NCBI GenBank assembly: GCA_047495785.1
Contig: JBLDXI010000026.1
Coordinates: 248,001 to 312,000, forward strand
Direction: 5' to 3'
Origin: Lepidodermella squamata
Taxonomy: Eukaryota > Animalia > Gastrotricha
Length of the DNA: 64,000 bases
In this document: positions 16,471-38,784 of the stretch, piece after piece
Layout of the letters: each line of letters begins with the position of its first letter
Position numbering within the stretch: position 1 is the stretch's first letter
Made by a program: the position numbers and the translations under genes
Notes under the pieces: model-generated
Told to the model about the DNA's origin: nothing
Databases searched by the model: none
Seen by the model: the letters and a program-made list of their open reading frames with translations, nothing else

Positions 16471-17607
16471 GGATTTAAACGAGCGCCGTCACATAACCGG
16501 TGCCACCTATCACTTTCGCAGCGGCTTTCAATAACGTCACCGAGATCCTTCGATTGCTAAAAAATGGAGCTGATATCAACCAAGTTGACTGGGTCGGCCA
16601 AACAGCCCTTCATATGTGAATAATAAGTTGTGGGCAGATTTCTAGTAATTTAAACCCTCTTCCAGGGCAGCAAAGTTCGGTAGAAAAGAAGCTGTTGAGG
16701 TATTGCTGGTACATGGAGCTGTAGCATCTGTAACCAATAAGGATTACCTTGAAACACCTCTCCACCTTACCAGCAGAACACAGAACAAAGAAATCAGTCA
16801 ACTGCTGTTGAAAAATGGAGCAAACATCAACGCATTCGCTTTCAGTGCGGATTTTCCCGGCGGAACTCCCTTAATTTACAGCGTGTGGATGGCAAATTCA
16901 GTCGAGGCAGCCGAATTACTTCTCGAAAATGGCGCCAATGTTTCAGCAGTTCGCACCGATGGCATGACACCTCTTCACCTTGCTGTTCTGAACAACAACT
17001 TTAAAATGGCTGCTCTGTTACTGAAACACGGGGCTAATCCGAACGCAAAGGACAAAGAAGGCGATACGCCGCTGAACTGGCTTTCATGGCAGTTGAAGCC
17101 GCAAATGCCGCTGATGTCGCTACTCATCAACAACTCAGCCGATATGAATACGGAAAACTTGGCGGGAGATACACCTATTCGAAACGCGGCTTATCGAAAC
17201 TACTTCCCTGTAATACGATTTCTCATCGAGAATGGAGCGAGGTGGGAGGCGGGGTATAGATTTAAGGTGATTCGACCTATTTCAATTCTTCATTACTAAC
17301 GACCCATTTTTAAGGAAGATTTTCCTTATGTGCCGAAACTCTCATTTTTGGCCGCCTATGGTGACGCCAATGGTATTGAATCTTGGCTGAGCAATAACGG
17401 TGATGGATCAGCGATTGTTGACCAGAGAGACTGGTTGTTTCAGAACGCTCTTCATATGGCCACGATGTATGGTCAACTCGAAGTTGCAGAAGTTTTACTG
17501 CGTTGGAAGGCTAACGTGAATATGACTGATTCTTCAGGTTTCACGCCTCTTCATCGCGCTGCTCAATTAGGAGATCATAACATGTTGCAGCTTCTTATCA
17601 ACTCAGG
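16471..17607 (+). pseudogene. Multi-exon ankyrin-repeat gene cut at its 3' end by the Maverick (possible frameshift near 16505)
   Basis: ANK motifs GQTALH, ETPLHL, GMTPLHLAV, GFTPLHRAA; the last repeat LLINSG runs straight into the left TIR. Confidence 0.7.
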
Positions 17608-17694
17608 AGGAGGAAGTGTGAGGAGCTTAAAAAGAAACAACGTCAAAAGTTAATTTTAAATAATAAATTAGGACTCAAATTTTGGGTACTTTTC
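17608..17694 (+). repeat. Left terminal inverted repeat of the Maverick (partly re-duplicated at ~17721-17785)
   Basis: AGGAGGAAGTGTGAGGAGCTTAAAAAGAAACAACGTCAAAAG... is the reverse complement of ~39595-39681. Confidence 0.93.
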
Positions 17695-21049: not shown

Positions 21050-24000
21050 ATGTCTGAAGATTTCGAAATCGTCCGCGATGAAACCATAAGTCAGAGATAT
21101 AACCTATCAACTTATGAAATTAGAGTTCAAACCGGGCAAGGTTCAGAAAATGATACCCTGACTCAATTTTCGCGGCTCCAGGAGACTTTTGATAGTATCG
21201 TATCTAGGTTAAAATCAAAGTTTCATATCGATTCGATGTGTCGAATAACGCTATTTAATTCAGAATTAGCTTATCCTATCTCGCTCGGTTATTACCGACT
21301 GGGAAGCTTGAGCGGAAATACGATTACCGCTAATGTAGAACGCGTTGCTCAATCTAAGGAGAGTTTAAAATTAGCCAAAAATTGGCGAGTGGAAGCTACT
21401 ATGGTCTTCCTCGATAAGAAGGTCTATTTAGGCGCCGGACCTGTTAAACAACGACGTGAAATTCAGAACTCGGCTCTGAAATGGCTGGCGAATCTAAGCT
21501 CGTTCATACCTGTAAATAACAGCGATGCATTATGCTTATTTCACGCTATCATTCTGGGCATCAGCCATGAAAAATATGCGTCTTACGTAGCTGACAAGAA
21601 TCGGAATTTAATTAAATATTTGGAAAATCCGCAGTTAGAGCAAGCCGGCTTAGAATTTCAATTTCTGAAAGAAGACAAGGTCCAGCTGCGAAAAAAAGCC
21701 AGACAGTTGTGCACTGAAGCTGGGTTCGACCCGGATTCTAAACAGTGCTGCTTTAGCGTTGATGATCTTCCTCAAATTATGCGTCTCTATCCTCAATATC
21801 AGGCTGTTGTGTTTTCCTTGCTAGAAGATCGGATAATTTTTGTTTGGCCTGATACGTCAGAATTCCAAGAGACCGAGCCAAAGCGGTTATATTTAATCTG
21901 GATATCTCCTAAAATACTAGCTTCTGAAGGCGCCACTATATACAATAATATAGGTCATTTCGCGGCTCTGAAAAACCTGCATCATGTTGGGCAAGGAAAG
22001 ACTTATTGCAAGTTGTGCCTAGTTCCAGTAACAAGATCGAACCATAATTGTTTATTTCGTTGCTATGCATGTTTTCAGCGTGTGAAGCCCGCTCAAAAAT
22101 TCAGTATAGGAGCAGCGAATATTATACCTAAACAACTAACTCGATGCTCAGACGATTTTTCCTTTAGTTGTTCAGAGTGCAATAGGTGTTTTTACAGCCT
22201 AAAATGCTATGAAAATCATCTGAAATTCAAAATTTGTGAAAAATTCGTCCGTTGTAAAACATGTGGTGATGTAAAGAGTCGTAGTAAAATTGCGTTACAT
22301 CACTGCCAAGGTCGAAAATGCCAGATTTGCAAGTCAGTTCTCGGACCTGATCACAAATGTTACTGGATCAGGCCCAAGCTGAAGCTCTCGCCAGTTCCAA
22401 ATCGCGTTCTCTTTTTCGATACGGAATGTTTGATAATGGATAATGGCGAGTTTTACCCGAGCACAGTGATTGCTGAATTTGCATGTGATGCATGCCGCGA
22501 TCTTGAAATTCGTCAATATCCGATAAATGGGAGTAAAATTTGCGTAAACGGGTGCTCCCAATTGTTCTTCTACGACGAGTATAACGCGTTTTCAAATTTT
22601 ATGGCTCACATCTGCCGTGAAGAATACAAGGATCTCACATGTATTTCGCATTACGGAGGTTAGGTTTTTCCTTTCATCATTTACTGGAAAAAAACTCGTG
22701 TTTTCAAGGGAAATTCGATACACTTTTCGCTTTGAGGTACGCACAAGATCACAATTTGAAGATCGAAACATGTGAGCGAGCGGGAAGAATCCTCGAGCTT
22801 AAAATCACTCGTGGTCCGCGGTATTTTTTTCACAATTTAAAGAAAAACATGGAAAATAAGAAATCGTTTTAGGTTCATTGATAGCTTCAATTATTTCCTT
22901 ACGAAACTCTCATGTCTACCTGCTGCATTCGGTATAGAGGGGATAGAAAAGCTTTCATACCCTCACAAGTTGCACAAGCGAGAAAATCTTCACAAAATTT
23001 TCAGCGAATGGCCTGGTATTGAATTTTATGATACTAGTAACATGGAATCCAGTGAAATATCAAGTCTGGAACAATTCATCAGCCATAAGCGCGAAAACAA
23101 TCAAAAGTTCGATTTCAAGTTGGAAACGTATCGATATTGCATGCAAGACACTGTAATTCTTCGGCTGGCGACGGGACGGTTTTTTAAACTAATTCAAAAT
23201 CTATCGAAATGCGAGTACGCGCCAAATGGTATTGATTGCTTCAAATATCTAACATTGTCAGCGATTTCGCACATCATTTACCGTGTATGTGAATGAAAAA
23301 ATAATGAAAAACCCCATTAATTTCTTCTTTTCAGATAAAATTCATGCCGCAAAAATCTATCAGGATAATGAATCCGCAAGGTTTAGCCCTAAGAGATGTT
23401 GCAAGTCAAGAAGCATTGCAGTGGCTTTACTATTATTCCAAAACTAATAATGTTGAGATAGAATCAGCACTGAACGGTAGTGAATGTCGACTAACCCTAA
23501 GCGATAAAACAATTCGTAAACCCGACGGGGTTGTTCGTAATCGGGCGACTGGGGAGGTTGAACGCGTCCTTGAGTATTACGGTTAGCGTTTTTTCGGAAA
23601 AATTAAGCCCAAGTTTTAAATCTGGTTTTTTCTAGGATGCGCCATTCACGGCCACCCAGCCTGCTTTCCAGAGAACCAATTTAATTTTTTGCTGCGAAAA
23701 ACGTTCGGAGAGCTGGCATATGACACTGCAAAACGCGAGGAGCAGCTGAGACAAAATAATTATAAACTGACAACGATTTATGCTTGCGAGTTCAAATCAA
23801 TGTTAGCGCGCAATCAGGAGCTAGCTAAAGCACTGGAGGCAGCTGTTTCCGTAATCCCGCCGATAAAGCCTCGATCAGCTTTGCTTGTGATAATTATTCA
23901 AAAATTACATTTTTAATCATAATTTTTTTTTTAATTGAAGGGCGGAAGGTGTGAAGTACACCGCTGTTTCTTCGAGAAAGATGCCAATACTAGCTTGTTT

Positions 24001-25512
24001 TACGTTGATATAAACTCCATGTATCCATTTGTTCTGTGGTCGAAAGACTTCCCGTGTCAAGATGTATCAATGCAAGTTTTAAGGTGGCGTTTGGATGATG
24101 CGAAATTGAGGGCAAAGTTTTTTGATACAACGGACCCAGCGTTTGGCCTGATATCTTGCAAGATAGTACCAAACGCTGCTTTGATAATTCCCTGTCTCCC
24201 ATGGAAATACGAAGATCGATTAGTATTTATCAGTTGTAGGACTTGCTACGTCGAGAAAAATTCAAAAACGAGATGCAATCATAATGATGAAGAGCGTGCT
24301 CTAACAGGTGTGTGGACTACTGAAGAGGTACGTATGGCTGTCGAGAAATTCGGGTATAGCCTTCAATCCGTTTTCGAAATATGGCACTACGAGTCCCGAG
24401 GAAATTTGAACTTTAAGGATTTTATAATATCGCTTCAAAAGCTCAAGTTGGAACATACACAAATAGCCGCTAATCTTGACGTAGAGAAATATGTGTCTGA
24501 TTGCCGAGCGAAGTATGGTATCGATTTAGACACGCAGGCTATGCTATCGCCGAATCCTGCTATGAAGCAGATATCGAAGATCCTACAGAATAGGTAGATG
24601 GCGTTGTTTTTTAGCACTGGTCTTGGTCTTATATCCCTCGTAGCTTTTACGGCAGATTTTGTCTCCGAAGCAATAATTCTACTGTGAAATATCTTGATTC
24701 GCCAGAGCAACTTATAGATCTGTTCGAAAGTCCAGGGAAAGTTGTTCACACCATACTGCCAGTTGGCCCTGATGACGAATCTCAACGAGTCCGCGTTTCA
24801 TATTCCGATGCTCCAGATCACGAACAACCCTGTCCGAGCAATTCAGAGATAATAGCCGCTTTCATAACGTCGTATGCAAGAATTTTGTTGTACGAAGAGG
24901 TTGAAGGAAGCTATTCGAAATCAATAATTTTTAAAGCTCTTTGCTTTCTAGATGGCTCGACTCGGTTCGAGGGTAGTCTATTGCGATAGTAAGCATTTTT
25001 TCAATTTCCGAGATTTTTTTCAAATTCAATTTTTTAAGCGGATTCCTTAATTTACACGCATCAAGAGGGCGAGTATAAAATTCCAGAGGGACCCTTCATG
25101 GGTGAATTCAAATCGGAATTAAGCGATGGCGAAATCATTGAATCATGGGTTTGCATCTCGCCAAAGTCATACTCATTCGTAACTAATTTCAGGTATCGAT
25201 GAAAAAATAATTTCACTGCGGATTTTTCGAGGCTTTGATATTTTCAGATCTGAGCTCAAGTTCAAAGGAATAACTCAGAGCCTCGCAGGGAAAAAATTGT
25301 CACATGAATCTTTAGTCAAGCTGTTATTTGAATCATTGAGCGAATCTGCGCATCCATCTCTGACTCTTGATCAAACCAGATTCCACCGGCGGCACGTTCC
25401 GGCTTCAGTGACTCTTGAAACGCTTGAAAAAAGAATAGCGCCACATTTGAATGATAAACGAATATTTTGCCCTACATCCTTTACTTCAATACCTTACGGG
25501 TACCGGGTATAA
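21050..25512 (+). CDS. pPolB: Protein-primed family B DNA polymerase (group 2), 10 exons, ~1331 aa: 21050-22658, 22709-22820, 22873-23284, 23335-23581, 23636-23886, 23941-24593, 24644-24899, 24952-24988, 25039-25192, 25248-25512
   Basis: vOTU (SDALC..GHF), CxxC fingers, ExoI FFDTE, ExoII HYG|GKFD, R|FIDSFN, ExoIII YCMQD, VSR-like EYYG|CAIHG, L|GGRCE, motif A DINSMYP, motif B KILQN|SFYG, motif C YCD|TDS, PKSY, KFKG, DKR..PYGY; spliced length 3996 nt is a multiple of 3. Confidence 0.95.
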
Positions 25513-25544
25513 CTCTTTCATGCATTCTTCTTCTATTAGAAATT

Positions 25545-25997
25545 ATGTCAGACAGCATTTCACCGGATCGATTGGCTCCTGAGAGTGTAGCCTCTTACGA
25601 GTTTGTAAATTCTGAAGTTACCTGTTGCATTTGCCTTGGAATCATGCTTACACCTGTACACATTTCCAACTGTCAACACGCATTCTGCGAAACCTGCATT
25701 TGTCGATGGGGCGATCGAGTTGAAGCTGGTAAAAAAGGTGGTTTGGTGGCGTATATGTACTCGAAGGCTACTTGCCCGAAATGCCGCCAATTATATACTT
25801 GCTTGGATCTCACCCCTGGGCCGGCTGTTGTAGATCGATTAGTCTCCCTTTTGCAGTTTAAATGCGTGAATGAAAAGCGCGGATGCTCAGTCAAAATGGA
25901 CTATCTCAGTCTCATGGAGCATCAAAAGAAATGCAATAAACGGAAAGTACCAAAATATACTGGAAATTTTAAATTTCTTCGTCAAAAAGCTGATTAG
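25545..25997 (+). CDS. C3HC4 RING finger + TRAF-type zinc finger protein (putative E3 ligase), 150 aa
   Basis: CCICL..PV...CQHAFCETCI..W...CPKCR followed by CVNEKRGC..LMEHQKKC. Confidence 0.88.
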   Translation: MSDSISPDRLAPESVASYEFVNSEVTCCICLGIMLTPVHISNCQHAFCETCICRWGDRVEAGKKGGLVAYMYSKATCPKCRQLYTCLDLTPGPAVVDRLVSLLQFKCVNEKRGCSVKMDYLSLMEHQKKCNKRKVPKYTGNFKFLRQKAD

Positions 25998-26103
25998 GGA
26001 TTCAGCTTCCCAATTGAATCAAGTCTGAAATCCATCTGAAATAAATCCATATGCACCTAAACAAAAATATGTTTGAATTTTAGGATCAAATTAACTAAAA
26101 AGA

Positions 26104-26441
26104 ATGAAAAGTTCGTACATTTTGGAGCTTAAACTGACGAATGGCAGTACTTTCTACACGACTTTCGATGAATCATCGACACTTGCTGACATCATAGCAC
26201 ATCTACACGCTGCTTGGCCGCCAAAATGGGGCGACAAGCTTGACCTGGATCAATTACAGCTCTACTGCAAAGATCGCGCAATCAGAAAGTCGGTGCTGCT
26301 CAAGTGTAAGTAAATTTCTACCTTTGAACCGAGCTTGATGATTTTCCAATCCTAGCATTGAGTCGCCGCGAACTACATGGCTACAAGCATCGCACTTATT
26401 ATGTCACTATTGTCTCAAAAAGCCCTCTTCCCGAGCTTTGA
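26104..26441 (+). CDS. UBL3/MUB-like ubiquitin-fold protein 1 (intron 26306-26355)
   Basis: LKLTNG..F...TLADIIAHLHAAWPPKW...LQLY; the WPxxW..LxLxY signature of UBL3. Confidence 0.7.
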
Positions 26442-26513
26442 ACTTTCTGCTAATGTATAGTAAAGAAAAATACTATATTCGAGCTTGTTTTAAACTTAGA
26501 TTTGTAACTTAAA

Positions 26514-26759
26514 ATGGAACCTCAGGCTTTTGAGGAATTTTCAGCTAATGTCGCTTGGAGAAATGGAGATCAAATTAGCTTGCGATGCCATGCGTCAATA
26601 AAAGTAGACGCTATCCTACAGCAGATATATGACGAATGGCCAGATAGTTGGGGTGAGAAGCCGCATGTGAAAGAACTCCGACTATGTTACAACGGTAGAT
26701 GCTTGCATAGGTTCTACAAACCAATAAGAAAGTATTTCCCAAGTATTTCCCAAGTGTAA
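26514..26759 (+). CDS. UBL3/MUB-like protein 2 (possible extra 3' exon to ~26860)
   Basis: IYDEWPDSWGEKPHVKELRLCYNGRCLH vs UBL3 VYDNWPMDW..ILRLIYQGRFLH. Confidence 0.75.
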   Translation: MEPQAFEEFSANVAWRNGDQISLRCHASIKVDAILQQIYDEWPDSWGEKPHVKELRLCYNGRCLHRFYKPIRKYFPSISQV

Positions 26760-26907
26760 TTGTTTTTATCCAACAGAACTCTGCAACTATCTCCGAGTGA
26801 ACGTTTTGGAGCTGACAGCTACAGCGCTTCATGTCTAATGATTTTCTGCTATGTATAAAAGATGGGTAAAAAAAGGGATCTTTTTAATTTTAGAAACATT
26901 TGAAAAA

Positions 26908-27165
26908 ATGACTAAATGGAATTTGAAAATTCGTATCGATAAGCGATTGAGTCCGAAATTAACTCTCAGAACGATTGGCGATCTTAAGGTAAATTCTCAA
27001 TTGCGAATCCCGCTAATTATAAGAATTATACTCTGGCAGGTTTTGTTTATACGCAATTGTCCATGCCAACCATGCGTGATTGTCTCTGGAACGACAAAAG
27101 CGAAGATCTTTCGTCTATCTGACATTGAGACCGCAATTTGCTTTTACAAACAGCGTGAAAATTAA
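26908..27165 (+). CDS. Small Maverick orphan protein (probable in-frame intron 26989-27039)
   Basis: ATG after a TTTTAG acceptor; 51-nt GTAAAT...GGCAG intron; CPCQPC motif. Confidence 0.4.
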   Translation: MTKWNLKIRIDKRLSPKLTLRTIGDLKVNSQLRIPLIIRIILWQVLFIRNCPCQPCVIVSGTTKAKIFRLSDIETAICFYKQREN

Positions 27166-27222
27166 GTCGTGAAAAAAGTGATTCAGGAATGGTTTTTTTA
27201 TCTTAGGTTATAAAAATAATTG

Positions 27223-27573
27223 ATGGAAGCATCTCAAGATTGCGATTGGAGCAGCTGCGAATCCCTTGATTCTTGCAATTCTGTTGATTCTTCAACTCAA
27301 ACTTTGCCTTATGAGCCGAACTCTTCAGCTCTTCTCCTCAGGTGGGTTACTGGCGCTAAGGTCATCATAAAATGTCGAAAGTCGACTCAGATGCGCGAAA
27401 TTTTGAATAAGCTGTGGGAAAAATGGCCCGATGGTTGGACAAGCCGGCCTTCGGACCCCAGAAAATTGAAAATTTACTACGGCCGGCTCAACATTCAAGA
27501 CTTGACTAACGTCTACGAATTGAGCAAGGATCTTGACAAACGTCATTTGGTATTCAACGTACGCTGCGAGTAA
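27223..27573 (+). CDS. UBL3/MUB-like protein 3
   Basis: LLLRWVTGAKVIIKC...LWEKWPDGW...LKIYYGR...VFNVR. Confidence 0.72.
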   Translation: MEASQDCDWSSCESLDSCNSVDSSTQTLPYEPNSSALLLRWVTGAKVIIKCRKSTQMREILNKLWEKWPDGWTSRPSDPRKLKIYYGRLNIQDLTNVYELSKDLDKRHLVFNVRCE

Positions 27574-27672
27574 TAGTTCATCACAATTCAAACAGTTGAA
27601 ATCTGTATTAACCTGAATAATTGACGCAGTAAAATTAAATGGTTATGATATTCTTTTTTAGGCGAATTAATA

Positions 27673-28023
27673 ATGATATACTCGGCTGCGATTGAATCCC
27701 CTTCGATGAAACCTTCAATTCCAGTAATTAACCTCGTTCAGGATGACGTAGCTATCTTACTGAAGTGGGAGAATGGCAACAAAGTAATCATGCGTTGTCG
27801 ACCATGGCTATCATGCGACTCCGTGTTAGCAGCGCTGGGGGCTGACTGGCCAAAAAATTGGGATAAAATTGGACCCACTGACAGATTGCATTTGCACTAC
27901 AATAAACTTTGCCTTCCCCCTTTTGGTTATAAAGTCGGAGATTTTCTGAAAGATAGCAGACATCGCTTTGTAACGCTACATGTAAAATCATTTGAGCCCA
28001 AGATCAAGCGCATTTGTCCTTAG
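27673..28023 (+). CDS. UBL3/MUB-like protein 4
   Basis: ILLKWENGNKVIMRC...ADWPKNW...LHLHYN...VTLHVK. Confidence 0.72.
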   Translation: MIYSAAIESPSMKPSIPVINLVQDDVAILLKWENGNKVIMRCRPWLSCDSVLAALGADWPKNWDKIGPTDRLHLHYNKLCLPPFGYKVGDFLKDSRHRFVTLHVKSFEPKIKRICP

Positions 28024-28073
28024 TAAAGTGTTTAATTAACTCTGATTTTTCTAGTGCAGTTAACTAAAATCGC

Positions 28074-28415
28074 ATGGAAATAGCAAACGATATCTCTCAA
28101 ACCCTAAGCAAGACGGAAGACTCGACAATTCCAGTAATTGACATAGTTCGGAACGATCTGACTGTCATTCTTAAGTGGGTTACTGGAGATAAAGTAATCA
28201 TGCACTGTGAAGAGTTGGATTGTCCGTATGACATTATTCGCAAGTTAATGGCGACCTGGCCAAAAAGATGGAAATTCGATAAATCGGCTGAACCTCATAC
28301 ATTATACTTATGCTACGGCGGTCTTAAGCTGCCAGGGTGGCACAGGATGAGGTTTTTTTTACCTGCTAATGATTCCAGCCGACGATATGTAACACTTGAT
28401 GTCAAATATATGTAA
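28074..28415 (+). CDS. UBL3/MUB-like protein 5
   Basis: ILKWVTGDKVIMHC...ATWPKRW...LYLCYGG...VTLDVK; close paralog of protein 4 (shared IPVI motif). Confidence 0.72.
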   Translation: MEIANDISQTLSKTEDSTIPVIDIVRNDLTVILKWVTGDKVIMHCEELDCPYDIIRKLMATWPKRWKFDKSAEPHTLYLCYGGLKLPGWHRMRFFLPANDSSRRYVTLDVKYM

Positions 28416-28522
28416 TATTAATCGTTTGATTTTATCCGTTTATTCAACGCATAGGTAATAGGTATTCAATAAATATATCATATGTAATTTCGGGTAATTT
28501 TTTATTTTTTTAGGAAAATATT

Positions 28523-29439
28523 ATGATAGCTGACTTCTACAATTCTGGATTGCCCCCGAATTTCGCGTGGAAAATAGTGAAATCATTGAAGGTTTGCTGA
28601 CAAGTAGTCTGGACCTAAAACGCATTTTTTGTATTGTAGCCGTTCGACAACTTGCGACCAAAATCTGTTCAGCGAGCATCAGGATTCAGGCGGTTGAAAG
28701 TGATGTGCATTTCCGACACGCACGACAGCGATTTTGTTTCAAAGGTGTCGAAAGCTCAAACATCGGCTCAAGCTGATATTTTGGTTCACGCGGGTGACAT
28801 TACGACTTTCGGAAGTTCAGCAGAACTACGTCGATTTGATCGTCTGTTATCAAGCGTCAAGCCAATGTTCCGAGAAGTAGTTGTTATCGCTGGAAATCAC
28901 GATCGATGTTTGCAAAGCGGCGAATATGAGCTGAAAAATTGCATCTACTTGCAAGATGAGGCGATCAGAATCAGCGGTCTTCTGTTTTACGGCACGCCGT
29001 GGTAAGTTTCTTGAATCGTGTTTCTTGATTCAAGTTTCTTTCGCGAAGGACACCGTGGACTGACAGTCGACATTCGGCTTTCACGCGTGCGAGAGGTCGA
29101 GAAATTAGCGCGAAATGGGAGATGATTCCCAGCGATACCGACATATTAGTTACTCATAGTCCCATGTTGGGTGTTCTGGATCAAACATCGAGTGGTGAGC
29201 GGATCGGCTGCCTTTCGCTCGCTGATCAAATTTTAACTCGCATTAACCCAAAGCTTCACATTTTTGGGCACGCTCATTTCAGTAATCATGTAACAAAAGA
29301 AAAATTGAATTCAACTTTTTCTTTTTATTAAGGTCGCGGAGAATTTGAAACTGATAATACATTGTTTGTGAATGCAAGCCTGTGTGACGACGAGAACAAG
29401 TTACAGTTCAACCCGATATCTGTGGAGTTGCTCTACTAA
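28523..29439 (+). CDS. MPPED1/2 (239FB)-like calcineurin-fold metallophosphoesterase, 4 exons (introns 28592-28639, 29002-29048, 29282-29332)
   Basis: ISDTH, HAGDIT, AGNHD, YGTPW, W..IP..TDILVTHSP, FGHAH, FVNAS. Confidence 0.88.
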
Positions 29440-30305
29440 CGATCTGGCTTTGGAATCCATGCTGCCCATCCGCCGCTTTGTCCGCGGGTTTTCGGAGGTG
29501 ATGTCAACACTCGAGGATTCGTCGCCTTTATCGATCCCGCATCGACTATTTTGTGTAGTCGTTCTGCTGAATCCGTTGTCAATGGAGCATTCGTATCCGT
29601 AATATTTTGTAGGAACTCTAACAACGGCCATGAATCAACTACCGTTCCCGAATTCGGACTTAACAGATTGATCGTTTTATTTGGTGAAATTACAACCCTC
29701 TTGGACCTATTGGGTCCTTTCAAATCACTAAGTATCTTAGTCACCAGCAATCTCCGAGTTTTCGACTGGAAGCTATCAATGATTTCTTTAAAGTCCAAGG
29801 GTTTTTCAGGAGATACCTCCTCGCCCTGTTCTATTTTGGGAGAGCGAGTTGCTAACGGAGTTGTAGGTCGTTGCTTCACAGGGGATAAATTAGCTTCAGT
29901 CTCGCTTATCTCATTTTCATCCTCTAATGGATCATTAGATTTGGGTTCTGATTTTGTCTCTGCAATTTTTAATTCGCTTACAACGCGCTGAAACTCGCGG
30001 AAGGCAGAGTTGAATTTGTACAGCTTCCGACGAGCGTCTTCCTCTACATTGTCGGAAGATGACAATGCAGTTAGCATTTGCATTGCGTTACGCTTCAGCA
30101 AGCCTTTCTGCGCAGGTTCAGATGCTTCCTTGATTAATCGTTTACTCTCTGTCTCAACGGTATTCTTTGCGTCGTCATGCTTTAGCGCTCCTGGAACAAG
30201 GGCATAACGCTTTGCAAACTGGCCGAATCCACTCATTTTCGTGTGGCTTTGACAATTGCTTCGACCACTGTGGGAAGTATTCCTAAAATTGGTCTCATTT
30301 ATCAA
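29436..30305 (-). CDS. Conserved-position Maverick protein (PZ-like); probable start at MSGFGQF
   Basis: AKRYALVP N-terminal motif; last gene of the morphogenetic block. Confidence 0.5.
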   Translation of the reverse strand: MINETNFRNTSHSGRSNCQSHTKMSGFGQFAKRYALVPGALKHDDAKNTVETESKRLIKEASEPAQKGLLKRNAMQMLTALSSSDNVEEDARRKLYKFNSAFREFQRVVSELKIAETKSEPKSNDPLEDENEISETEANLSPVKQRPTTPLATRSPKIEQGEEVSPEKPLDFKEIIDSFQSKTRRLLVTKILSDLKGPNRSKRVVISPNKTINLLSPNSGTVVDSWPLLEFLQNITDTNAPLTTDSAERLHKIVDAGSIKATNPRVLTSPPKTRGQSGGWAAWIPKPDR

Positions 30306-30315
30306 TTTTTTTTAA

Positions 30316-30648
30316 TTAAAAAATAAGCAAACCAGCTACGGCTGACAATAGCGGTACTACAAAAGCTGCCCCGCCTTTCTGAACTATGTACTGACGATTA
30401 CTGCTAACAGTTCGCTCGCTTTCACCTAATTTTCTGATAGATTTACTAAATCTTCGCAGCTTTTTCGCTAATCTCGGCGAAATCTGAAGGTTCTTGTTGA
30501 GGAGATTGAGGCAAACTTCGCTTATAATTCTGATGACCGTATCCGGAGCAATAGATAACAACTGCCTACGCCGATCAATAGATTTTGCTCGAACTATTTC
30601 TCTTATAAAACCCAAAACGCGCTGCGATTTATCGTATGACTTGCGCAT
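30316..30648 (-). CDS. Conserved small basic Maverick protein (PW-like) with QKGG putative protease site
   Basis: IISEVCLNLL...LRRF..SIRKL...QKGG followed by a hydrophobic tail. Confidence 0.75.
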   Translation of the reverse strand: MRKSYDKSQRVLGFIREIVRAKSIDRRRQLLSIAPDTVIRIISEVCLNLLNKNLQISPRLAKKLRRFSKSIRKLGESERTVSSNRQYIVQKGGAAFVVPLLSAVAGLLIF

Positions 30649-30704
30649 ATCTTTAGACCATTATAAATGTGAACAAACACCTCATTTATATATACATTTT
30701 ATTA

Positions 30705-31448
30705 TTATTTCGGTACATAAATTACACCAGGGAAAGCGCCCACCCCAGTTCTATAGCGCATAAACTCCGGACAATCAGGACTGAGGTCGATAAGTAAGTA
30801 ACGATGTCCGCCTTTGCTTGTTTCCATTTCGAAACTCTCCACTACGAACCGCCAGCGCAGCGGTTCCAATTGCAGGGCGAGATAGCGGAACGATGTGAGA
30901 TCTGCACGATGCCGAAAAATGAATAAATATTTAGCATTCAGCGTCATTTCTTTGGACATTTTTCCTTTGCAGAATATTGCTTGCTGAGTAAAAAATACAG
31001 ATAACTTCAAATGATGAGAGTATCGATAAAATAATTGAAGAATTTTCGGATCGTTTCTTCCTGTATCATACAAGTCATCTATCACTAACAATGTATAAGT
31101 ATCATCTCCACTGCTTGATTGGAATTCTTCAAAGTTTAGTTGCTCTAGACCTTTGCGAAACTCAACAGTAAGACCACGGCTTTTTTCTACTTCATCCTTT
31201 ATTTGCTGATGCATCCCGGTCTCAACCCCGTAAAACCATAACACTCGATGCGGCGCTGGTGATATGGATTCCGGGTCGTTAAGAATTCGTCGAATAAGCC
31301 ATGTTTTGCCTAATATACATAGGATGAAATGAGATAATATTTATGAATCGCACAACTAACCTGCGCCGCTAGGACCTATAACGAGCGAGCAGAAAGGGGC
31401 TTGCAAGCTAAGCGATACATCTATTTCTGATGGCAAATCGCCAGACAT
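30705..31448 (-). CDS. ATP: A32/FtsK-like DNA packaging ATPase, 2 exons (intron 31310-31360), 230 aa
   Basis: Walker A GPSGAG|KT is split by the intron; Walker B LLVIDD; YSHHLKLSVFFTQQ; YLLID. Confidence 0.92.
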
Positions 31449-31996
31449 GACTGGTGACCGCTACAGGTACCGAAATGACGGGACATTTTCTCAGATTTGC
31501 TAACTTTAAATATTCGATTCACCTGATCAACTATGAAATTATCCGTATTTTTATCAGGAAGCATTTGCGCAATCTTATCCATAGATGCTCCCCTCGCGAA
31601 CCAGTGAAGCGTTAAATATGCGTAGTAGCCACAAACCGCCGTTGAATCGCTCTGATATTTATGCTTGTTATAAATGTAATTATTTTTCGAGTTGATGTTC
31701 GTTAAAAATGCTTCTATAGCCTTGTTATAGAAGTTCCCGCGCCGACCATAGCTATCAAAGAATAAAGCCGGCTCGTTTGTTTGTGGGACATAAATTGACA
31801 GCCAATGACTTCCCGGCTGACCAGCGGCGTCTGTATTTACAATTAGAGCCATGGGACGCTCGCTCATCCCCTGATATCGTGATAGATAATCCCATGGTAT
31901 AGTCTTTTTAACTGGAATTTTATTGAGATTTCTATCACAGCCAAGTAGACAGTCCAACTGGAGGGTATTTAGTTGACCTCCGTTCATGCTATTCAC
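31421..31996 (-). CDS. PRO: Adenain-like (C5) maturation cysteine protease
   Basis: IVNTD...GSHW, FFDSYG, YQ.....VCGYY (H-D-Q-C). Confidence 0.93.
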   Translation of the reverse strand: MNSMNGGQLNTLQLDCLLGCDRNLNKIPVKKTIPWDYLSRYQGMSERPMALIVNTDAAGQPGSHWLSIYVPQTNEPALFFDSYGRRGNFYNKAIEAFLTNINSKNNYIYNKHKYQSDSTAVCGYYAYLTLHWFARGASMDKIAQMLPDKNTDNFIVDQVNRIFKVSKSEKMSRHFGTCSGHQSCLAICHQK

Positions 31997-33282
31997 GTAA
32001 AGTCGACCAGGACGTTTCGTGCAAAATTCAGCTCGATAACTTGATCCGTCTCAAAGTAACAGAGAAGTATCAGGTTATCGGCTAATGCTTTTTTAAATAA
32101 TAAATCAATAGAAAGCACGCCACTTTTAACCAGACTGTATGCACTACGACTTGAGTCGGGTGAGAGATCGAATCCTATAAAGGAAAAGCCGTCCTTGCTG
32201 TATTCTGATAGCTTTATACCATTTGTTTTAGTCGAGTAAGGAAACAGCGTCTCCCTAAGAGCACTCATAGCCCGAGCCGATGTATTTTCGCCCTCTCCAA
32301 ATTCGAGCGGGCTGTTTGGGACATGCTCGCTATCTATTGTGACAGACACGCGCTGAACGCCAGCGTTTTTAAAGTTGTAAGGACTGGTGAAGATGTCGCC
32401 TTTGAAATCACTATCGCTAACGAAAGACATCACCAGTCGTCTGGGTATTTTCCCTAGTATAACGTGCCCAAGGTTGTAGTTAAGAGATCCCTTTTGCAAA
32501 TTCAAGACTTTAATGAACGATCTGTTCACACCATACTTGGCCGTGGTTTTTGTTAGTGTTCGATTCAGCGCCAACGTAAATTGCGGAGATACGCGAACGC
32601 GACGCAATTTGAGCTTAGCATCAGTAACTGTTAGTGTATAGTCCATCTTGTCCCCGGCAGGTTTCATCAGAGCAAACGCCTCAGGTGCGCGTATGAAAGT
32701 CAACTTGAAGGGCGTAGCCGGAATCAGAAATTTCGGCTGAGAGAATAGCTCTAAATGTGGCTTGCCTATAAGAACCATCTCGCCTTGCTTTGCCCAAGCA
32801 AGTCTGGCGGTATGACCCTTGCCAGCAGGATCGCTGACTTTACCAGCTTCGTCTGAATAATAGCCTTGCAATGCCAAGTAGCTATCCTTAGCTGTCGGAT
32901 CACAACTCAGTAAAGTTGAAATATAAGCCTTATAATTATATGTCGGAGCCGGTTCGCTGATTTGCGTATTATTTATGCTCATATCTATTTGACTGAACAT
33001 ACTATGCAACAGAAGGTTAACCGGCGAGCAAGTAAGGTCAGCTAAAGTCTTTGACGCGTCGCCATTCACTATTTTACATGTTATTTCCACGTATGAACGG
33101 CTCAAATCTGTCCAATCATTGCTTGGAGGGATGTCAAAATCAATGCGTGACTGATTGGCGATCGCGGAAACTGGTCCATATTCTGTAATGTAATTGCTCT
33201 CTATCTCAACTTGAGTAGGGTTCAACGAAAAGACATTCAGCTCAGCGCGAATTGCGTTTTCAGAAGAGGGGTGGACGTACAT
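31993..33282 (-). CDS. PY: Double jelly-roll major capsid protein
   Basis: ELNVF..PTQ, DLSRSY, PVNLLLHSMFSQID, YNYKAYI, SPYNF, GFDLSPD; 429 aa. Confidence 0.92.
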   Translation of the reverse strand: MYVHPSSENAIRAELNVFSLNPTQVEIESNYITEYGPVSAIANQSRIDFDIPPSNDWTDLSRSYVEITCKIVNGDASKTLADLTCSPVNLLLHSMFSQIDMSINNTQISEPAPTYNYKAYISTLLSCDPTAKDSYLALQGYYSDEAGKVSDPAGKGHTARLAWAKQGEMVLIGKPHLELFSQPKFLIPATPFKLTFIRAPEAFALMKPAGDKMDYTLTVTDAKLKLRRVRVSPQFTLALNRTLTKTTAKYGVNRSFIKVLNLQKGSLNYNLGHVILGKIPRRLVMSFVSDSDFKGDIFTSPYNFKNAGVQRVSVTIDSEHVPNSPLEFGEGENTSARAMSALRETLFPYSTKTNGIKLSEYSKDGFSFIGFDLSPDSSRSAYSLVKSGVLSIDLLFKKALADNLILLCYFETDQVIELNFARNVLVDFT

Positions 33283-33333
33283 GGCAGTGAGATGATTATT
33301 TAATCTCGGTTTTAACTCCTTTAAATAGGGTTT

Positions 33334-33796
33334 TCAGAAGGAAACGCGTTTTGTGCTCCTCTTTTTTTTCGTTGGCATTTTTTGTTTGGCTACGTACCGA
33401 CGACGACGACGCCGACCAGTTCCGATTTGCGAGCCTACTCTAGATATTACATCTTTTGCAACTCCCTTTAACCCTTCCACTGCACGTTGTTTCAAAATCG
33501 CTCTGGGATTGGCATCTTTGTTTTCAAGAAGATCCGTTGCAATGTTGGCTGTTGTATGACTCAAATTCCGAAATATCGGTCCAAGTAAGGGAATGATATG
33601 ATTGCGAAAAAACCCAGCAGCTACGCTCCCGAACCCGTTTCCTGTCTATACTAACACATTTTACACATTTTCACCGATTGTTACCGATTATTTTTACCTG
33701 GTATGAAGGAAAAACGATAGACTGTCCGCGAAATGGCTCTATCCCATATCCACTTTGTTGCAACAAAAAAGACTCGTAAGCATCGGCTGAATACAT
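33334..33796 (-). CDS. Small basic virion core/membrane-active precursor with QxGxG motifs, 2 exons (intron 33646-33697), 136 aa
   Basis: QSGYG, YQ|TGNGFG..FFRN..IPL, QIGTG followed by an Arg/Lys-rich tail. Confidence 0.75.
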
Positions 33797-33897
33797 GTTT
33801 TATTTAGCTTTGTGTACAGTTTAAATCGAACCTAACTAATCCATTGTCTTTTTTTACAGCTGAGCTTTCCAACTTTTTCTAAAAACGGATGAATGGC

Positions 33898-35588
33898 TCA
33901 TAAATAAATAAATAAATAAATAGCAATAGGTCTAATCTGAACTAATATAACAGCCTTACCACTAACGAATTTTACAGGTAATCCAGAGTCTTTATATATT
34001 TGAATCTCAATAACAGACAAAACGCGACGTTTAATTGGGACAAATATGGGTTTTTCAAAAGTTTTCGAAAAAAAGCTTCCTTTGTCTATCGTTTTTTCCG
34101 TCGGAATTACTCGCAACAGGGGTGTGCGGGTATTTCCGACATACACGTCATCAATTACGTCAGCGTACAAGAATAAGAAGGGCATTCCGTAATCAAGCTG
34201 GGGTGGAAATCTTGCGATCGCTTGATCGTCAACATGATGGATTGTGTAGAAATATTCTATTATCGATACAGGTTGCTCTTCGTGACTTGGCGGGTTTTGG
34301 TCATTTTGCGGACCAGATGGCTGAATTTCGACCGATGGGCTAGGAGCACTTGATGACCGCTCTTTCACCGCTGTGCCGCTCTGATCTGACTGATCCATCG
34401 ATGACTCGTCTGGCTCACTTTCATGCTGGTCTAGATCAACATTATCGTCAGGATTCTGATGTGTTGTCTCGTCAGGTAACAAATCTTTCTTTGCTGGATC
34501 CGTCGCTTTGTCTGACTCATTCTTCACAACTTCATCGTCACCAACCGCAGGGTCAGCCGGTTGATTATCATCTGGCTTCGCGGTCACTTGTTCATCTGGC
34601 TCAGCAGTCACTTGTTCATCTGGCTTCGCAGTCACTTGGTCTTCCGTTGACTCGCCAGGCTTCTTATTATCACCCGATGGAATTGGCGGAAGCTTTCGCT
34701 TTCGTTGCGGTGGGTTACTGTCATTCGATACCTTTTTATCATTCGGATCTTGCCTATTCTCAGCTTCCGTCTCATCCTCTTTATCGACCTTTTTCACATC
34801 ATCGTCAGCTGGGGGTGGCAACTCTGCATCTTCATCGGATCTTCGAGATCTAACTTTACCGGGTACTCTTTCCGGTAAAAATAGCCCACCTTTGAATCTA
34901 ACTTTGTTGAATTCATTCACATCTGCTGATATGGAACGGTATGGTATTCTCTGCCTACTTCCAGTAACGACATAGCCAAGCATTAGCCTGAACGCTGCGC
35001 CCATTTTAACCACGTCATTTGAAAACCCTTCGTCCTTTCTATCGAATTTGTGGAATGCAACAAAGGCACCAGGGTACCCTAAAACTTGCGCGAGTTCCTT
35101 AGGTATAAATATTCCCCATTTACCAATGGCGACCTTCAGTGACACGCGATTTGTGATTTGCACGTACTCAAATGTAATATTCTTCGTTATGCTCTGAACT
35201 TCCTTCTCCATGTGAGTAAGCAATTCTTCTATGTTGGAGTAATATACTCCTCCGACCTGGCATTCATGCAGATTTTTCGTGTCAAATGGATCCGGAGCTT
35301 TGTATGCATCAGGTTGTTCCAACCATTCGCAATCAAAAACGTAAAAATTTGTCGGTTCTATCGACTCCCAAGCTGATGGACCGTTAAATTCCACGAGACC
35401 CATTTCCCATTGACCTAAATTTTTTTTTAGTGCGGGCTATAAGTGACTTTCATTTTTATCATACCCACTGTGCCAAGATCAATATCGTTGGCCAACTTGA
35501 CGCGAAATGACGACGCTGTGTTGTCAGGAAACAGATCGTTGGATGCGTTCGATGGTAAGTAAAGTAAAAATTCTTGCCGCGCGCTCAT
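33898..35588 (-). CDS. PX: Minor capsid (penton) protein, 2 exons (intron 35415-35464), with a large acidic insertion
   Basis: N-terminal FLLYLPSNAS..FPDNT..FRVKL..G|QWEMGL; C-terminal LYADVI..VGN..PLLRVIP..IEIQI..G.PVKF. Confidence 0.88.
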
Positions 35589-35818
35589 GTCGTCGTGTTA
35601 TTAGCAATGCGATGAAATAGCCGATCCCTCCAAGACCAGTAGATTTCAATAGAAAAATATGTGGCGCAGAGAGCTAACAGCGATATTATTCCGAGACCTT
35701 TTTTTCTCCTACTAACTGCAGCTGCTAGCCTACTGCTAACACTGCTGTGCGGCGAACTACTTTTACTTGCTCTTTCGTGTGATTCTTCAGGTGCCTGAGG
35801 AGACTCTGTTCCACACAT
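35585..35818 (-). CDS. Small predicted single-TM Maverick protein
   Basis: 77 aa; RRKK followed by a hydrophobic stretch; stop overlaps the penton ATG (ATGA). Confidence 0.5.
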   Translation of the reverse strand: MCGTESPQAPEESHERASKSSSPHSSVSSRLAAAVSRRKKGLGIISLLALCATYFSIEIYWSWRDRLFHRIANNTTT

Positions 35819-35899
35819 TTATCGGCGATGCACGCGTTTGTTACCGCGTTTGCGTGCTGTGGATTTTCGTTTCCGGATAGCTCGTCTAGGACCAGGCAT
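35819..35899 (-). CDS. 26-aa protamine-like peptide MPGPRRAIRKRKSTARKRGNKRVHRR (not in the ORF track)
   Basis: ATG overlaps the integrase TAA; its TAA abuts the next ATG; 13 of 26 residues are Arg/Lys. Confidence 0.55.
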   Translation of the reverse strand: MPGPRRAIRKRKSTARKRGNKRVHRR

Positions 35900-37164
35900 T
35901 ACTTTCCCCTCTTTTTGGCCGATTTTCGCTCCTTTATATATTCATTTTGGACGTCTTTTATTTGGTCAATTGGCTCCCATGAACTTTGAGATTTGGGAAA
36001 CCCAACCCAGCTAACTAAAACCCGCGTTGTTCCATCCTTGAATTTTCGCTTCTCTTTACTCACTTCATCTATCAGGTATTCATCCGGTAATTTGACTTTT
36101 TGAAGCTCATAGTGATAAAAAACGCCTGCAACAGGTTCGGTGTAGTCGCCGTTTTCTGTGCTCCATCCATTCAACTTGTATGTATGCGGCCCGTACCTGT
36201 CTGGCTTGATGGCTTTCGCTATTTTGAAATACTCATCCGTATAAGTAAAATGACGAGCGCGGGCAAAAACGCCTCTCTCTGCTGAGATCCGTACTACATC
36301 GTCTAATTTAAAAGCTGATGGCTGCCTGCGACCTTCTTCTATGTCCGCTCCGAAAACGTTATTGTAAGCTATATACTGCTTAGGGCTGTCCTCGAAAATA
36401 TCGAGATTAAGCTCCTTGTCACTCCCGATTTTACGCCCACTCTCCTTGTCATTGTACAACTCTGCGGGTGTGAACTTGGTAGATGAGTGACGGGAGTCAT
36501 TGTAAACTCTAACGATGTTCTGCAAATCATCGACGAATCTACCGTCGTTTCGCGCCATCGCAAGCTTAGCCAGTCGCATGCGCAGTAATTTGTTGAATGA
36601 CTCTATTTGAGGAACTTTCTTTTCCGAATTCGTAGCGAAAAAATGAATGGATTCTGATTTCAAATATCGCTCAACGTGTTGGTTGAAAAATTCTGAACCT
36701 CTATCGAACACAACAGCGTACGGTTTTTGCTTAGCGTCCTTCATAACTATTTTCAGAGCTCTAAGTGTTTCGGGACCGGTTTTATTTCGCATCGTTTGCA
36801 CCCAGGCGAAACGACTGTATGTGTCCTTGGCTGTAAGTATATATTGCACGTTGTCGTTCTCGCCCTTTACATTTCTCACGTCCACCAAGTCCATAGCGAA
36901 CAAACTTCTTCGACTAAAGCATGCCACCTTCCGGGTTACTCGATTCCTCGTTCCGACCTGCTTATAAACGCTCCACGTACGTTGATTTCCCAACCAGTTC
37001 CTTACTTGCCGCATTGTGATCTTTCGACCTGGATACTTGACCCTGTAGGCTTTGTAAAGAGCTGATACGCTACCGAGACCGCCTGGTTCACCCGGGTCGA
37101 AGTAAATTTTTCGCAAATCTCGGTCATCTTGATCTAACGTTGGCATTTTCGTTGTATATTCCAA
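35899..37164 (-). CDS. INT: Retroviral-like (rve) integrase with C-terminal chromodomain; probable ATG at 37146
   Basis: IYFDP..PGG, DDE triad MDLVD / FDRGSEF / IESFNK, YNDSRHSS, VRIS, chromodomain VLVSWVGFP...SWEP. Confidence 0.95.
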   Translation of the reverse strand: MEYTTKMPTLDQDDRDLRKIYFDPGEPGGLGSVSALYKAYRVKYPGRKITMRQVRNWLGNQRTWSVYKQVGTRNRVTRKVACFSRRSLFAMDLVDVRNVKGENDNVQYILTAKDTYSRFAWVQTMRNKTGPETLRALKIVMKDAKQKPYAVVFDRGSEFFNQHVERYLKSESIHFFATNSEKKVPQIESFNKLLRMRLAKLAMARNDGRFVDDLQNIVRVYNDSRHSSTKFTPAELYNDKESGRKIGSDKELNLDIFEDSPKQYIAYNNVFGADIEEGRRQPSAFKLDDVVRISAERGVFARARHFTYTDEYFKIAKAIKPDRYGPHTYKLNGWSTENGDYTEPVAGVFYHYELQKVKLPDEYLIDEVSKEKRKFKDGTTRVLVSWVGFPKSQSSWEPIDQIKDVQNEYIKERKSAKKRGK

Positions 37165-38750: not shown

Positions 38751-38784
38751 AAATTTATTATTCTTAGACAAGATTTATTGAGTC

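What the first reader, a model, noticed from the sequence alone, without database searches (positions are those of the whole stretch)
25545..28415. Viral ubiquitin-like module: RING/TRAF E3 followed by five tandem UBL3/MUB-like genes
Seen: five diverged paralogs carrying the WPxxW...LxLxY(xG) signature directly downstream of a C3HC4 RING protein. The adjacent pPolB also has a vOTU domain with intact Cys/His. None of the readable C-termini ends in GG or a canonical CAAX (VRCE, RICP, VKYM, LPEL). Known: UBL3/MUB proteins are prenylated ubiquitin folds; plant MUBs bind and inhibit E2s, and animal UBL3 sorts cargo to small extracellular vesicles. Inference: a captured and amplified (gene-accordion) set of soluble decoys that, with the E3, rewires host ubiquitination or vesicle egress. 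I know of no Polinton described with a UBL3 array.
Basis: partly seen in the sequence, partly recalled or inferred. Interest (0 to 1): 0.85.

Follow-up and report, generated by a model that had tools for sequence, protein, structure and literature searches.

The report
Polinton with five anchorless UBL3 copies
A virus-like mobile element (Polinton) in an invertebrate genome carries a RING-finger gene and five old, diverged copies of the host ubiquitin-like protein UBL3 that lack its membrane anchor and most of its enzyme-binding surface, so they likely serve as repurposed binding modules against host proteins, a set-up I did not find in print.

Summary
A 22-kb Polinton (terminal inverted repeats, pPolB, integrase, protease) carries, right after pPolB, a C3HC4 RING gene and five tandem UBL3-derived genes. 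Homology rests on Pfam (3 of 5), a host-UBL3 profile (top five hits in the window), invariant WPxxW and two beta-grasp models. The copies are old (18-42% identical, synonymous sites saturated) and appear constrained.

The proposed mechanism mostly fails. All five lack CAAX, none keeps the full E2-backside patch (98-100% conserved in 82 host UBL3s), and none keeps the lap-bar loop. MUB-type E2 inhibition and vesicle sorting are therefore unlikely. The vOTU is a standard pPolB domain. 

Best reading (0.45): soluble scaffolds with divergent surfaces that bind host proteins, perhaps as adaptors for the RING, which has no recognisable substrate domain; untested. Splice-acceptor-like sites precede the start codons, suggesting one polycistronic early unit. 

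In passing: the pPolB has nine predicted 50-55-nt introns with an open frame, so ORF-length screens would miss it. I found no viral relatives, no paper, and no earlier scan note of this array. Host phylum is unresolved and there are no RNA data.

The parts
17603..17692 (+). Left terminal inverted repeat of the Polinton
   Evidence: 90-nt arm, 98% complementary to 39597-39686; starts AGGAGG; no matching target-site duplication at the ends
21050..25512 (+). pPolB, predicted 10 exons, 1331 codons; N-terminal putative vOTU motifs (C162, H303)
   Evidence: PF03175 on two exons; nine GT-AG introns of 50-55 nt give a stop-free frame with DINSMYP and YCD-DS motifs; splicing is predicted, no RNA
25545..25997 (+). 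C3HC4 RING plus one Sina/TRAF-type Zn finger, 150 aa; likely minimal E3 with no recognisable substrate domain
   Evidence: Pfam; PDB RING matches TRIM5/TRIM21, E 6.6e-07; ligands C27 C30 C43 H45 C48 C51 C77 C80, plus I29, W55, P78, R81
26104..26441 (+). U1, UBL3-like, 95 aa, predicted intron 26306-26355 (phase 1)
   Evidence: intron falls where two host protein models carry insertions
26514..26858 (+). U2, UBL3-like; second exon uncertain (stop at 26838 or about 26858; unspliced ORF ends 26759); may be damaged
   Evidence: PF13881 above cut-off; alternative splice readings not separable
27223..27573 (+). U3, UBL3-like, 116 aa, acidic Ser/Cys-rich N-terminus, ends VRCE
27673..28023 (+). U4, UBL3-like, 116 aa, IPVINLV stretch before strand 1, basic tail ending RICP
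   Evidence: AlphaFold2 beta-grasp; 40% identical to U5
28074..28415 (+). U5, UBL3-like, 113 aa, IPVIDIV stretch before strand 1, ends at strand 5
   Evidence: AlphaFold2 beta-grasp
25526..28513 (+). Seven splice-acceptor-like sites (AG ending at 25539, 26083, 26499, 27206, 27661, 28054, 28513), each 5-20 nt before a start codon
   Evidence: individually significant in 4 of 7
28523..29439 (+). Calcineurin-like metallophosphoesterase, spliced, last gene of the rightward block (true start uncertain)
   Evidence: PF00149 E 2.2e-08; introns 29002-29048 and 29282-29332
29436..37146 (-). Core block: two unassigned ORFs, putative ATPase, protease (31421-31987), putative major (31993-33282) and minor (33898-35403) capsid proteins, integrase-chromodomain (35899-37146)
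   Evidence: rve and Chromo, Peptidase_C5 E 7.8e-04; capsid and ATPase labels are from position, size and recall, with no hit in Pfam, PHROGs or PDB
37202..39396 (+). Right-hand cargo: protein kinase (spliced), TBP-like, helicase-like ORF
   Evidence: Pfam; kinase introns
39597..39686 (-). Right terminal inverted repeat

Best explanation
An integrated Polinton carries a RING gene and five tandem, deeply diverged UBL3-derived beta-grasp genes without CAAX, which likely act as soluble, repurposed binding scaffolds that engage host proteins during the element's early phase, possibly as interchangeable adaptors for the RING. Steps: (1) shown: the array lies inside the terminal repeats, on the pPolB strand; (2) inferred: a genomic, intron-bearing UBL3 copy was captured once and duplicated long ago; (3) shown: core residues are kept, while the anchor, the E2-backside patch and the lap-bar loop are lost and the surfaces differ between copies; (4) inferred: pPolB, RING, U1-U5 and the phosphoesterase are made from one rightward transcript that is resolved by splicing at acceptors before each start codon (leader trans-splicing or a shared leader); (5) inferred, weakest: the RING recruits a host E2 itself and the UBLs supply or block substrates.
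For: Inside TIRs. UBL3 ancestry. Fold. Of 47 columns at least 90% conserved in host UBL3, each copy keeps 13-18, mostly core (W47, P48, W51, L62, G23 in all five). Ile44-equivalent (host 0.98) is Y, C, Y, H, C; Gly47-equivalent (1.00) D, G, R, K, G; His68-equivalent (0.99) T, uncertain, N, H, D; Val70-equivalent (0.98) V, uncertain, R, K, K; the P-x-G of the lap-bar loop is absent in all. CAAX-like ends in 64 of 82 hosts, 0 of 5 copies. pS 0.67-0.88 exceeds pN 0.41-0.55 in 10 of 10 pairs. RING keeps all eight ligands and the Ile, Trp, Pro and Arg recalled as E2-binding hallmarks but has no recognisable substrate domain. Host UBL3 is a cofactor of a RING E3, MARCH1 (PMC9001657). T-rich YAG before 7 of 7 starts against 26 of 365 plus-strand ATGs (threshold chosen after seeing the data); matrix test combined p about 1e-07; 0 of 7 minus-strand genes have such a site. 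In-frame stops in the leaders of U1, U2, U3, U5 exclude a spliced poly-UBL chain.
Against: No partner, expression or activity is shown. The host-protein-binding role rests on analogy. U4 keeps the His68 equivalent and has PPFG at 82-85 (before the short helix, not in the lap-bar position); U2 and U5 keep the Gly47 equivalent; one U2 splice reading puts ERFG after the short helix, so weak E2 contact is not excluded. The lap-bar Phe is itself not conserved in the invertebrate hosts. With the matrix test only 4 of 7 acceptors are significant alone (RING p 0.30, U2 0.12, U5 0.08), and some have a donor 45-59 nt upstream that would make an ordinary 5' UTR intron. The tree does not show one origin for all five: U2-U5 group (96/86) but U1 is an unplaced long branch. 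pN/pS comes from protein-guided alignment near saturation. U2 may be damaged. No target-site duplication, so the copy may be rearranged.
Confidence: 0.45

Rival explanations
1. Soluble MUB-type decoys that bind the backside of UBE2D-class E2s and slow their charging, or pull them off the membrane.
For: UBL3 ancestry; MUB and human UBL3 inhibit E2 charging and the C-terminal tail is unstructured in the complex (PMC4996978); single patch residues survive in U1, U2, U4, U5; a basic residue at the AtMUB3 Arg12 position in 4 of 5.
Against: Ile44 equivalent replaced in 5 of 5, Gly47 equivalent in 3 of 5, lap-bar P-x-G in 5 of 5; the loop is required for inhibition. A general E2 inhibitor next to an E3 that needs the E2 is awkward.
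Confidence: 0.13
2. The proteins regulate the element's own products or life cycle (stability or dosage of RING, kinase, pPolB, capsid) rather than host targets.
For: Ubiquitin-like domains fused to Maverick cargo (WASP proteases, KRMA kinases) appear to set protein abundance (10.1101/2022.07.12.499685); same strand and likely same transcript as pPolB.
Against: Here they are free proteins, not fused; five divergent surfaces fit many changing host partners better than a few fixed ones (inference).
Confidence: 0.17
3. Non-functional relics: captured host DNA that duplicated and is drifting.
For: Long branches; loss of every known functional surface; U2's 3' end is ambiguous; no RNA evidence either way; no target-site duplication.
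Against: Open frames and an invariant core survive saturated synonymous divergence in 10 of 10 pairs; acceptors and start codons kept; pPolB and the other genes are open.
Confidence: 0.1
4. A SUMO-targeted ligase in parts: the IPVI[ND][LI]V stretch of U4/U5 binds SUMO and brings the RING to SUMOylated silencing factors.
For: The stretch resembles a SUMO-interacting motif (pattern recalled), is kept in U4 and U5 while the sequence before it is not, and is unstructured in both models.
Against: Short hydrophobic motifs are common; only 2 of 5 copies have it; no link to the RING is shown.
Confidence: 0.08
5. UBL3-type cargo sorting into extracellular vesicles to aid particle exit.
For: U3 and U4 keep a penultimate Cys; UBL3 modifies targets through C-terminal Cys (PMC6158211); no fusogen-sized ORF was recognised, so another exit route is conceivable.
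Against: No CAAX in any copy; membrane localisation and function of UBL3 need it; 3 of 5 have no terminal Cys on the favoured readings.
Confidence: 0.05

Closest known systems
UBL3/MUB (PF13881; AtMUB3:AtUBC8, PDB 4X57; PMC4996978)
   Same: Beta-grasp fold, WPxxW insertion, L-x-L-x-Y strand, no diglycine; small stand-alone proteins.
   Different: No CAAX, E2-backside patch and lap-bar loop largely lost, 20-33% best identity to hosts whose mutual median is 72%; five tandem copies in a mobile element.
Nematode Maverick cargo WASP proteases and KRMA kinases (10.1101/2022.07.12.499685)
   Same: Ubiquitin-like folds as Maverick cargo; cargo genes with introns.
   Different: There the domain is fused to an enzyme, lies between left TIR and integrase, and core genes are intronless; here free UBL3-type proteins follow an intron-rich pPolB, with a separate RING. 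UBL3 ancestry of WASP/KRMA domains was not tested.
Polintons/adintoviruses with TP-vOTU-pPolB (PMC11071308, PMC8502044)
   Same: TIRs, pPolB with putative OTU Cys/His, integrase, protease, core block.
   Different: Nine predicted spliceosomal introns in pPolB; RING, UBL3 array, phosphoesterase, kinase, TBP cargo.
UBL3 as cofactor of the RING-CH ligase MARCH1 (PMC9001657)
   Same: A UBL3-type protein beside a RING E3.
   Different: Host function needs prenylation and is modelled as E2 recruitment; both features are missing here.
Ubiquitin and UBL genes of large DNA viruses; tandem host-range families and spliced early units of poxviruses and adenoviruses (latter two recalled)
   Same: Viral capture of ubiquitin-fold genes (BFVD matches, including one Pithovirus entry named Rad60/SUMO-like, 10% identity); tandem diversification; many ORFs from one spliced unit.
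   Different: BFVD matches are 8-18% identical fold-level hits; none of the 50 listed is named UBL3; no array of this kind seen.

Membership tests
UBL3/MUB | Beta-grasp ubiquitin fold | tested here: met
   U5 and U4 models; Foldseek E about 1e-05 to ubiquitin, UBL3, MUB3; VIA Z 10-11, rmsd 1.8-2.9 over 71-90 residues. U1-U3 not modelled. Fold alone does not separate UBL3 from ubiquitin.
UBL3/MUB | Sequence signature (PF13881, WPxxW) | tested here: met
   WPxxW 5 of 5; Pfam 3 of 5, 1 above cut-off; custom profile 4 of 5 at E<1e-04, U4 0.15
UBL3/MUB | C-terminal CAAX prenylation motif | tested here: not met
   0 of 5, on the U2 readings scored; 64 of 82 hosts have Cys at -4
UBL3/MUB | Ile44/Gly47/His68/Val70-type E2-backside patch | tested here: not met
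   No copy keeps more than two of the four; hosts 0.98-1.00; mapping to AtMUB3 numbers is by residue spacing from PMC4996978
UBL3/MUB | Lap-bar loop (K/R)xPFG between helix 2 and strand 5 | tested here: not met
   Host P 0.84 and G 0.96; absent at that place in all five; U2 uncertain
UBL3/MUB | Binds UBE2D-class E2 and inhibits charging | not testable with these tools
   No host E2 sequence was in hand; needs biochemistry
Polinton/Maverick | Terminal inverted repeats bracketing 15-25 kb | tested here: met
   98% arms 21.9 kb apart
Polinton/Maverick | pPolB and retroviral-like integrase | tested here: met
   PF03175; rve plus Chromo; open spliced frame
Polinton/Maverick | Protease, packaging ATPase, major and minor capsid proteins | tested here: inconclusive
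   Peptidase_C5 E 7.8e-04, below cut-off; ATPase has a P-loop-like motif split by an intron; capsid candidates have no library hit
Polinton/Maverick | 6-bp target-site duplication | tested here: not met
   No 6-8-bp repeat at any tested end pair; one 5-mer overlaps the repeat itself
C3HC4 RING E3 | Eight Zn ligands and E2-binding residues | tested here: met
   the role of I29, W55, P78, R81 is recalled
C3HC4 RING E3 | Ubiquitin ligase activity | not testable with these tools
   needs an assay
TRAF proteins | Coiled coil and MATH/TRAF-C domain | tested here: not met
   150-aa ORF ends after one Zn finger; no MATH hit; stop in the U1 leader blocks fusion
pPolB vOTU domain | OTU fold with catalytic Cys and His | tested here: inconclusive
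   Motifs at C162 and H303; no Pfam or PDB match; not modelled
Gene accordion (recent amplification) | Near-identical tandem copies | tested here: not met
   18-42% protein identity, pS 0.67-0.88

The most novel reading that the evidence does not exclude
An intron-rich Polinton lineage, invisible to ORF-length screens, runs an adenovirus-style spliced early unit that encodes a modular ubiquitin ligase: a bare RING plus five interchangeable UBL3-derived adaptors (two with SUMO-binding-like motifs) that direct host silencing or immunity factors to destruction. This would be the first viral use of UBL3 and a new kind of E3 adaptor.
Probability: 0.18. Interest if true: 0.85.

Novelty: new variant of a known kind. 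Interest (0 to 1): 0.6.

Why it matters
How Polintons deal with host defences is largely unknown. This element looks intact and devotes about 4 kb to a RING, five UBL3 derivatives and a phosphoesterase, which gives small, soluble baits for finding the host pathways that restrict such elements. UBL3 is otherwise very conserved (median 72% among the hosts compared), so five natural variants stripped of anchor and E2 surface show the fold being reused. The intron-split pPolB suggests that surveys demanding long pPolB ORFs (at least 900 aa in the cross-eukaryote screen of Jeong et al.) miss a class of animal Polintons.

Tried and rejected
Search for relatives of the array: 0 hits among 176 word-sharing candidates; 12 hits at E<=0.001 among 1.84 billion representatives, of which I read 5: three UBL3-like host proteins (two named fungal, one nematode-like unnamed), one polyubiquitin, one unrelated repeat protein; the other 7 are long multi-stretch hits not read. 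U5, integrase and capsid candidate in viral contigs and capsid candidate in metagenome contigs: none confirmed; these find close relatives only, so absence is weak. No whole genome is held. ESM Atlas gave no answer. RING + U5 complex prediction: no verdict, score 0.00, alignment not used; no evidence either way. No E2 complex was run. No RNA holder listed. Contigs of run X1 laid on 20700-39900 left the array itself uncovered because a filter drops records, so no copy or variant data for it. Poly-UBL polyprotein or RING-U1 fusion: rejected by in-frame stops in 4 leaders; U3-U4 fusion would need a weak donor that removes strand 5. Introner origin of the introns: 13 introns are no more alike than shuffles. 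Donor lineage of the capture: tree uninformative, long branches (30 of 87 rows used). Host phylum: adducin fragment matches arthropods, rotifers, molluscs and a fluke at 51-69% among named rows, best unnamed 73%, no named nematode among the best 120 of 5,250, so 'nematode' is not established. A bacterial promoter scan is irrelevant here. PMC11426020 (Polinton review) is not held.
Full report
Setting. The finding lies inside a 22-kb element bounded by 90-nt inverted repeats, 98% complementary, at 17603-17692 and 39597-39686. It holds a protein-primed polymerase (PF03175), an integrase with chromodomain and a weak adenovirus-type protease match. Capsid and ATPase labels rest on position, size and recall; they have no hit in Pfam, PHROGs or PDB. 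No target-site duplication was found. The host is an invertebrate with about 50-nt introns. An earlier scan note called this genome nematode-like, but an adducin search did not confirm it: no named nematode among the best 120 of 5,250 hits. No genome and no RNA run are held.

The observation. The 150-aa ORF at 25545 is a C3HC4 RING (E 8.9e-07) followed by one Sina/TRAF-type finger below cut-off, with no MATH domain. All eight ligands are present, with I29, W55, P78 and R81, which I recall as E2-binding and linchpin residues. Five paralogs follow, all with WPxxW. Pfam PF13881 hits 3 of 5, one above cut-off. A profile from 82 host UBL3 proteins (79 of the 95 hits plus three) ranks them as the top five of 1,980 window segments. 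A profile of the five returns UBL3 as best single-stretch PDB match. U5, folded with paralogs only, and U4, folded with host UBL3 in the alignment, give beta-grasp models. Fold searches tie ubiquitin, UBL3 and MUB3; the U4 ranking of UBL3 first is biased by its alignment. U1 needs a 50-nt intron; U2's second exon cannot be fixed.

Age and constraint. Core identity between copies is 18-42%, to the best host 20-33%, against a host-host median of 72% (37 hosts). pS (0.67-0.88) exceeds pN (0.41-0.55) in 10 of 10 pairs. This fits old duplicates under coding constraint and not a fresh accordion, with the caveat of saturation and protein-guided alignment. The tree groups U2-U5 (96/86) and leaves U1 unplaced; the donor is unresolved. 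U1's phase-1 intron aligns with insertions in two host protein models, a coral and a whipworm, which look like intron remnants. This indirectly suggests capture of genomic DNA.

What was lost. In the AtMUB3:AtUBC8 structure, Ile58, Ser60, Gly61, Ile63, Val86, His88 and Val90 bind the E2 backside, and the lap-bar loop, consensus (K/R)xPFG, is required to block E1 (PMC4996978; parts 1-3 of 7 read). The matching host columns are 98-100% conserved. In the copies the Ile is Y, C, Y, H, C; the Gly D, G, R, K, G; the His T, uncertain, N, H, D; the Val V, uncertain, R, K, K; and the loop's P-x-G is absent. CAAX-like ends occur in 64 of 82 hosts and 0 of 5 copies. UBL3's vesicle-related modification needs its terminal cysteines and its support of MARCH1 needs prenylation (PMC6158211, PMC9001657, PMC10511055; passages). 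Against my reading: single patch residues survive, U4 has PPFG before helix 2, U3 and U4 keep a penultimate Cys, and invertebrate hosts themselves lack the loop Phe. So these are UBL3-derived proteins that fail the family's functional tests.

The vOTU. D159-x-x-C162 and H303 are present, unconfirmed by any library. The domain is general in Polinton pPolBs and proposed to release the terminal protein (PMC11071308, passages; PMC8502044, passages). It adds nothing specific to a ubiquitin module.

Expression. pPolB, RING, U1-U5 and a phosphoesterase run on one strand with stop-to-start gaps of 32, 106, 72, 384, 99, 50 and 107 nt. A T-rich YAG lies 5-20 nt before 7 of 7 starts, against 26 of 365 plus-strand ATGs in the element and 0 of 7 minus-strand genes (post hoc threshold). 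A matrix trained on eight coding introns gives shuffle p below 0.05 for 4 of 7 and combined p about 1e-07. In-frame stops in four leaders exclude a poly-UBL chain. A polycistronic unit resolved by leader trans-splicing or a shared leader is the simplest inference; ordinary 5' UTR introns remain possible for U2, U3, U4 and the phosphoesterase. pPolB itself has nine predicted 50-55-nt introns and an open 1331-codon frame; they are not introner-like.

Mechanism. I favour repurposed soluble scaffolds with divergent surfaces that bind host proteins, perhaps as adaptors for a RING without a recognisable substrate domain (0.45 overall; the direct adaptor version about 0.2). This step is inference by analogy. 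Rivals: regulation of the element's own proteins (0.17), MUB-type E2 decoy (0.13), relics (0.10), SUMO-targeted ligase in parts (0.08), vesicle sorting (0.05).

Novelty. Full-text searches: polinton + UBL3, 0 papers; polinton + nematode + ubiquitin, 13 papers, 11 listed; UBL3 with viral-homolog terms, none of 25 listed of 1,250 contains UBL3; maverick/polinton/E3 ligase/ubiquitin-like/tandem duplication, 1 virophage review, listing only. The library lacks most subscription papers and one key review. Ubiquitin-like domains fused to enzymes are known Maverick cargo, and core genes there were intronless (10.1101/2022.07.12.499685, passages). Jeong et al. mention no ubiquitin genes and required pPolB ORFs of at least 900 aa in their cross-eukaryote screen (10.1101/2023.08.22.554363, passages). 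Introns in polinton-like viruses are known from dinoflagellate introners (PMC12166617, passages). PMC11414722 (passages) concerns a different trans-splicing. Supplements of these papers were not seen and may list such ORFs as unknown. Sequence searches found no viral relatives, with limited sensitivity. Earlier scan notes show no such array; one unchecked note reports a RING fusion in another Maverick.

Verdict. Real and apparently undescribed: a new variant of viral capture and diversification of ubiquitin-system genes, on a single locus with no expression or partner data. Interest 0.6.

Noticed in passing
window 21050-25512: pPolB split by nine predicted GT-AG introns of 50-55 nt with an open 1331-codon frame; kinase, phosphoesterase, U1 and probably the ATPase also have about 50-nt introns, while integrase, protease and capsid candidates have none. 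Core genes were described as intronless in a Caenorhabditis Maverick.
   Followed up: partly
window 25526-28513 and 38754-38767: Acceptor-like sites just before start codons of the rightward genes and of the helicase-like ORF, with stop-to-start gaps of 32-107 nt (384 before U3) and poly(A)-like hexamers after most stops.
   Followed up: partly
window 27718-27738 and 28128-28148: IPVINLV / IPVIDIV stretch kept in U4 and U5, resembling a SUMO-interacting motif.
   Followed up: partly
window 26729-26776: An 11-nt tandem repeat at the end of U2 exon 1 gives two identical GTATTT donors, 45 and 34 nt from the same acceptor, leading to different frames.
   Followed up: partly
window 16649-17650: Ankyrin-repeat coding sequence runs into the left terminal repeat and does not visibly continue on the right; no target-site duplication. 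A second partial copy of the repeat lies at 17721-17783.
   Followed up: partly
window 37202-39396: Cargo of a protein kinase, a TBP-like protein and a helicase-like ORF next to the right terminal repeat; a calcineurin-like phosphoesterase follows the UBL array.
   Followed up: no
window 30796-31082, 33930-34194, 35932-36156: Run X1 holds other contigs about 80% alike to the ATPase, minor-capsid and integrase regions, so related elements probably exist in the same data set; contigs 34092-37470 and 37520-39635 match with no differences.
   Followed up: no
window 33898-35403: The minor-capsid candidate carries a long acidic, proline-rich insertion with three 24-nt repeats (34568-34644).
   Followed up: no
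window 2346-14438: Three tandem, long single-ORF ANF-receptor-domain genes (807-894 aa).
   Followed up: no
window 10218-10850 and 14906-15703: A repeat-rich secreted precursor-like ORF (HKLRFG/KRRL units) and a 60-nt tandem array encoding a signal peptide plus RRRR-containing repeats on the minus strand; possible peptide precursors.
   Followed up: no
window 52772-56229: Three tandem CAP/SCP-like genes; glutamate-receptor-like (46389-49787), nuclear-receptor-like (50763-52151) and adducin-like (56893-57869) genes nearby; labels by eye except adducin.
   Followed up: no
window 42246-43120: Small element with perfect 26-nt inverted ends and an internal 97-nt inverted repeat around a CA run; MITE-like.
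   Followed up: no
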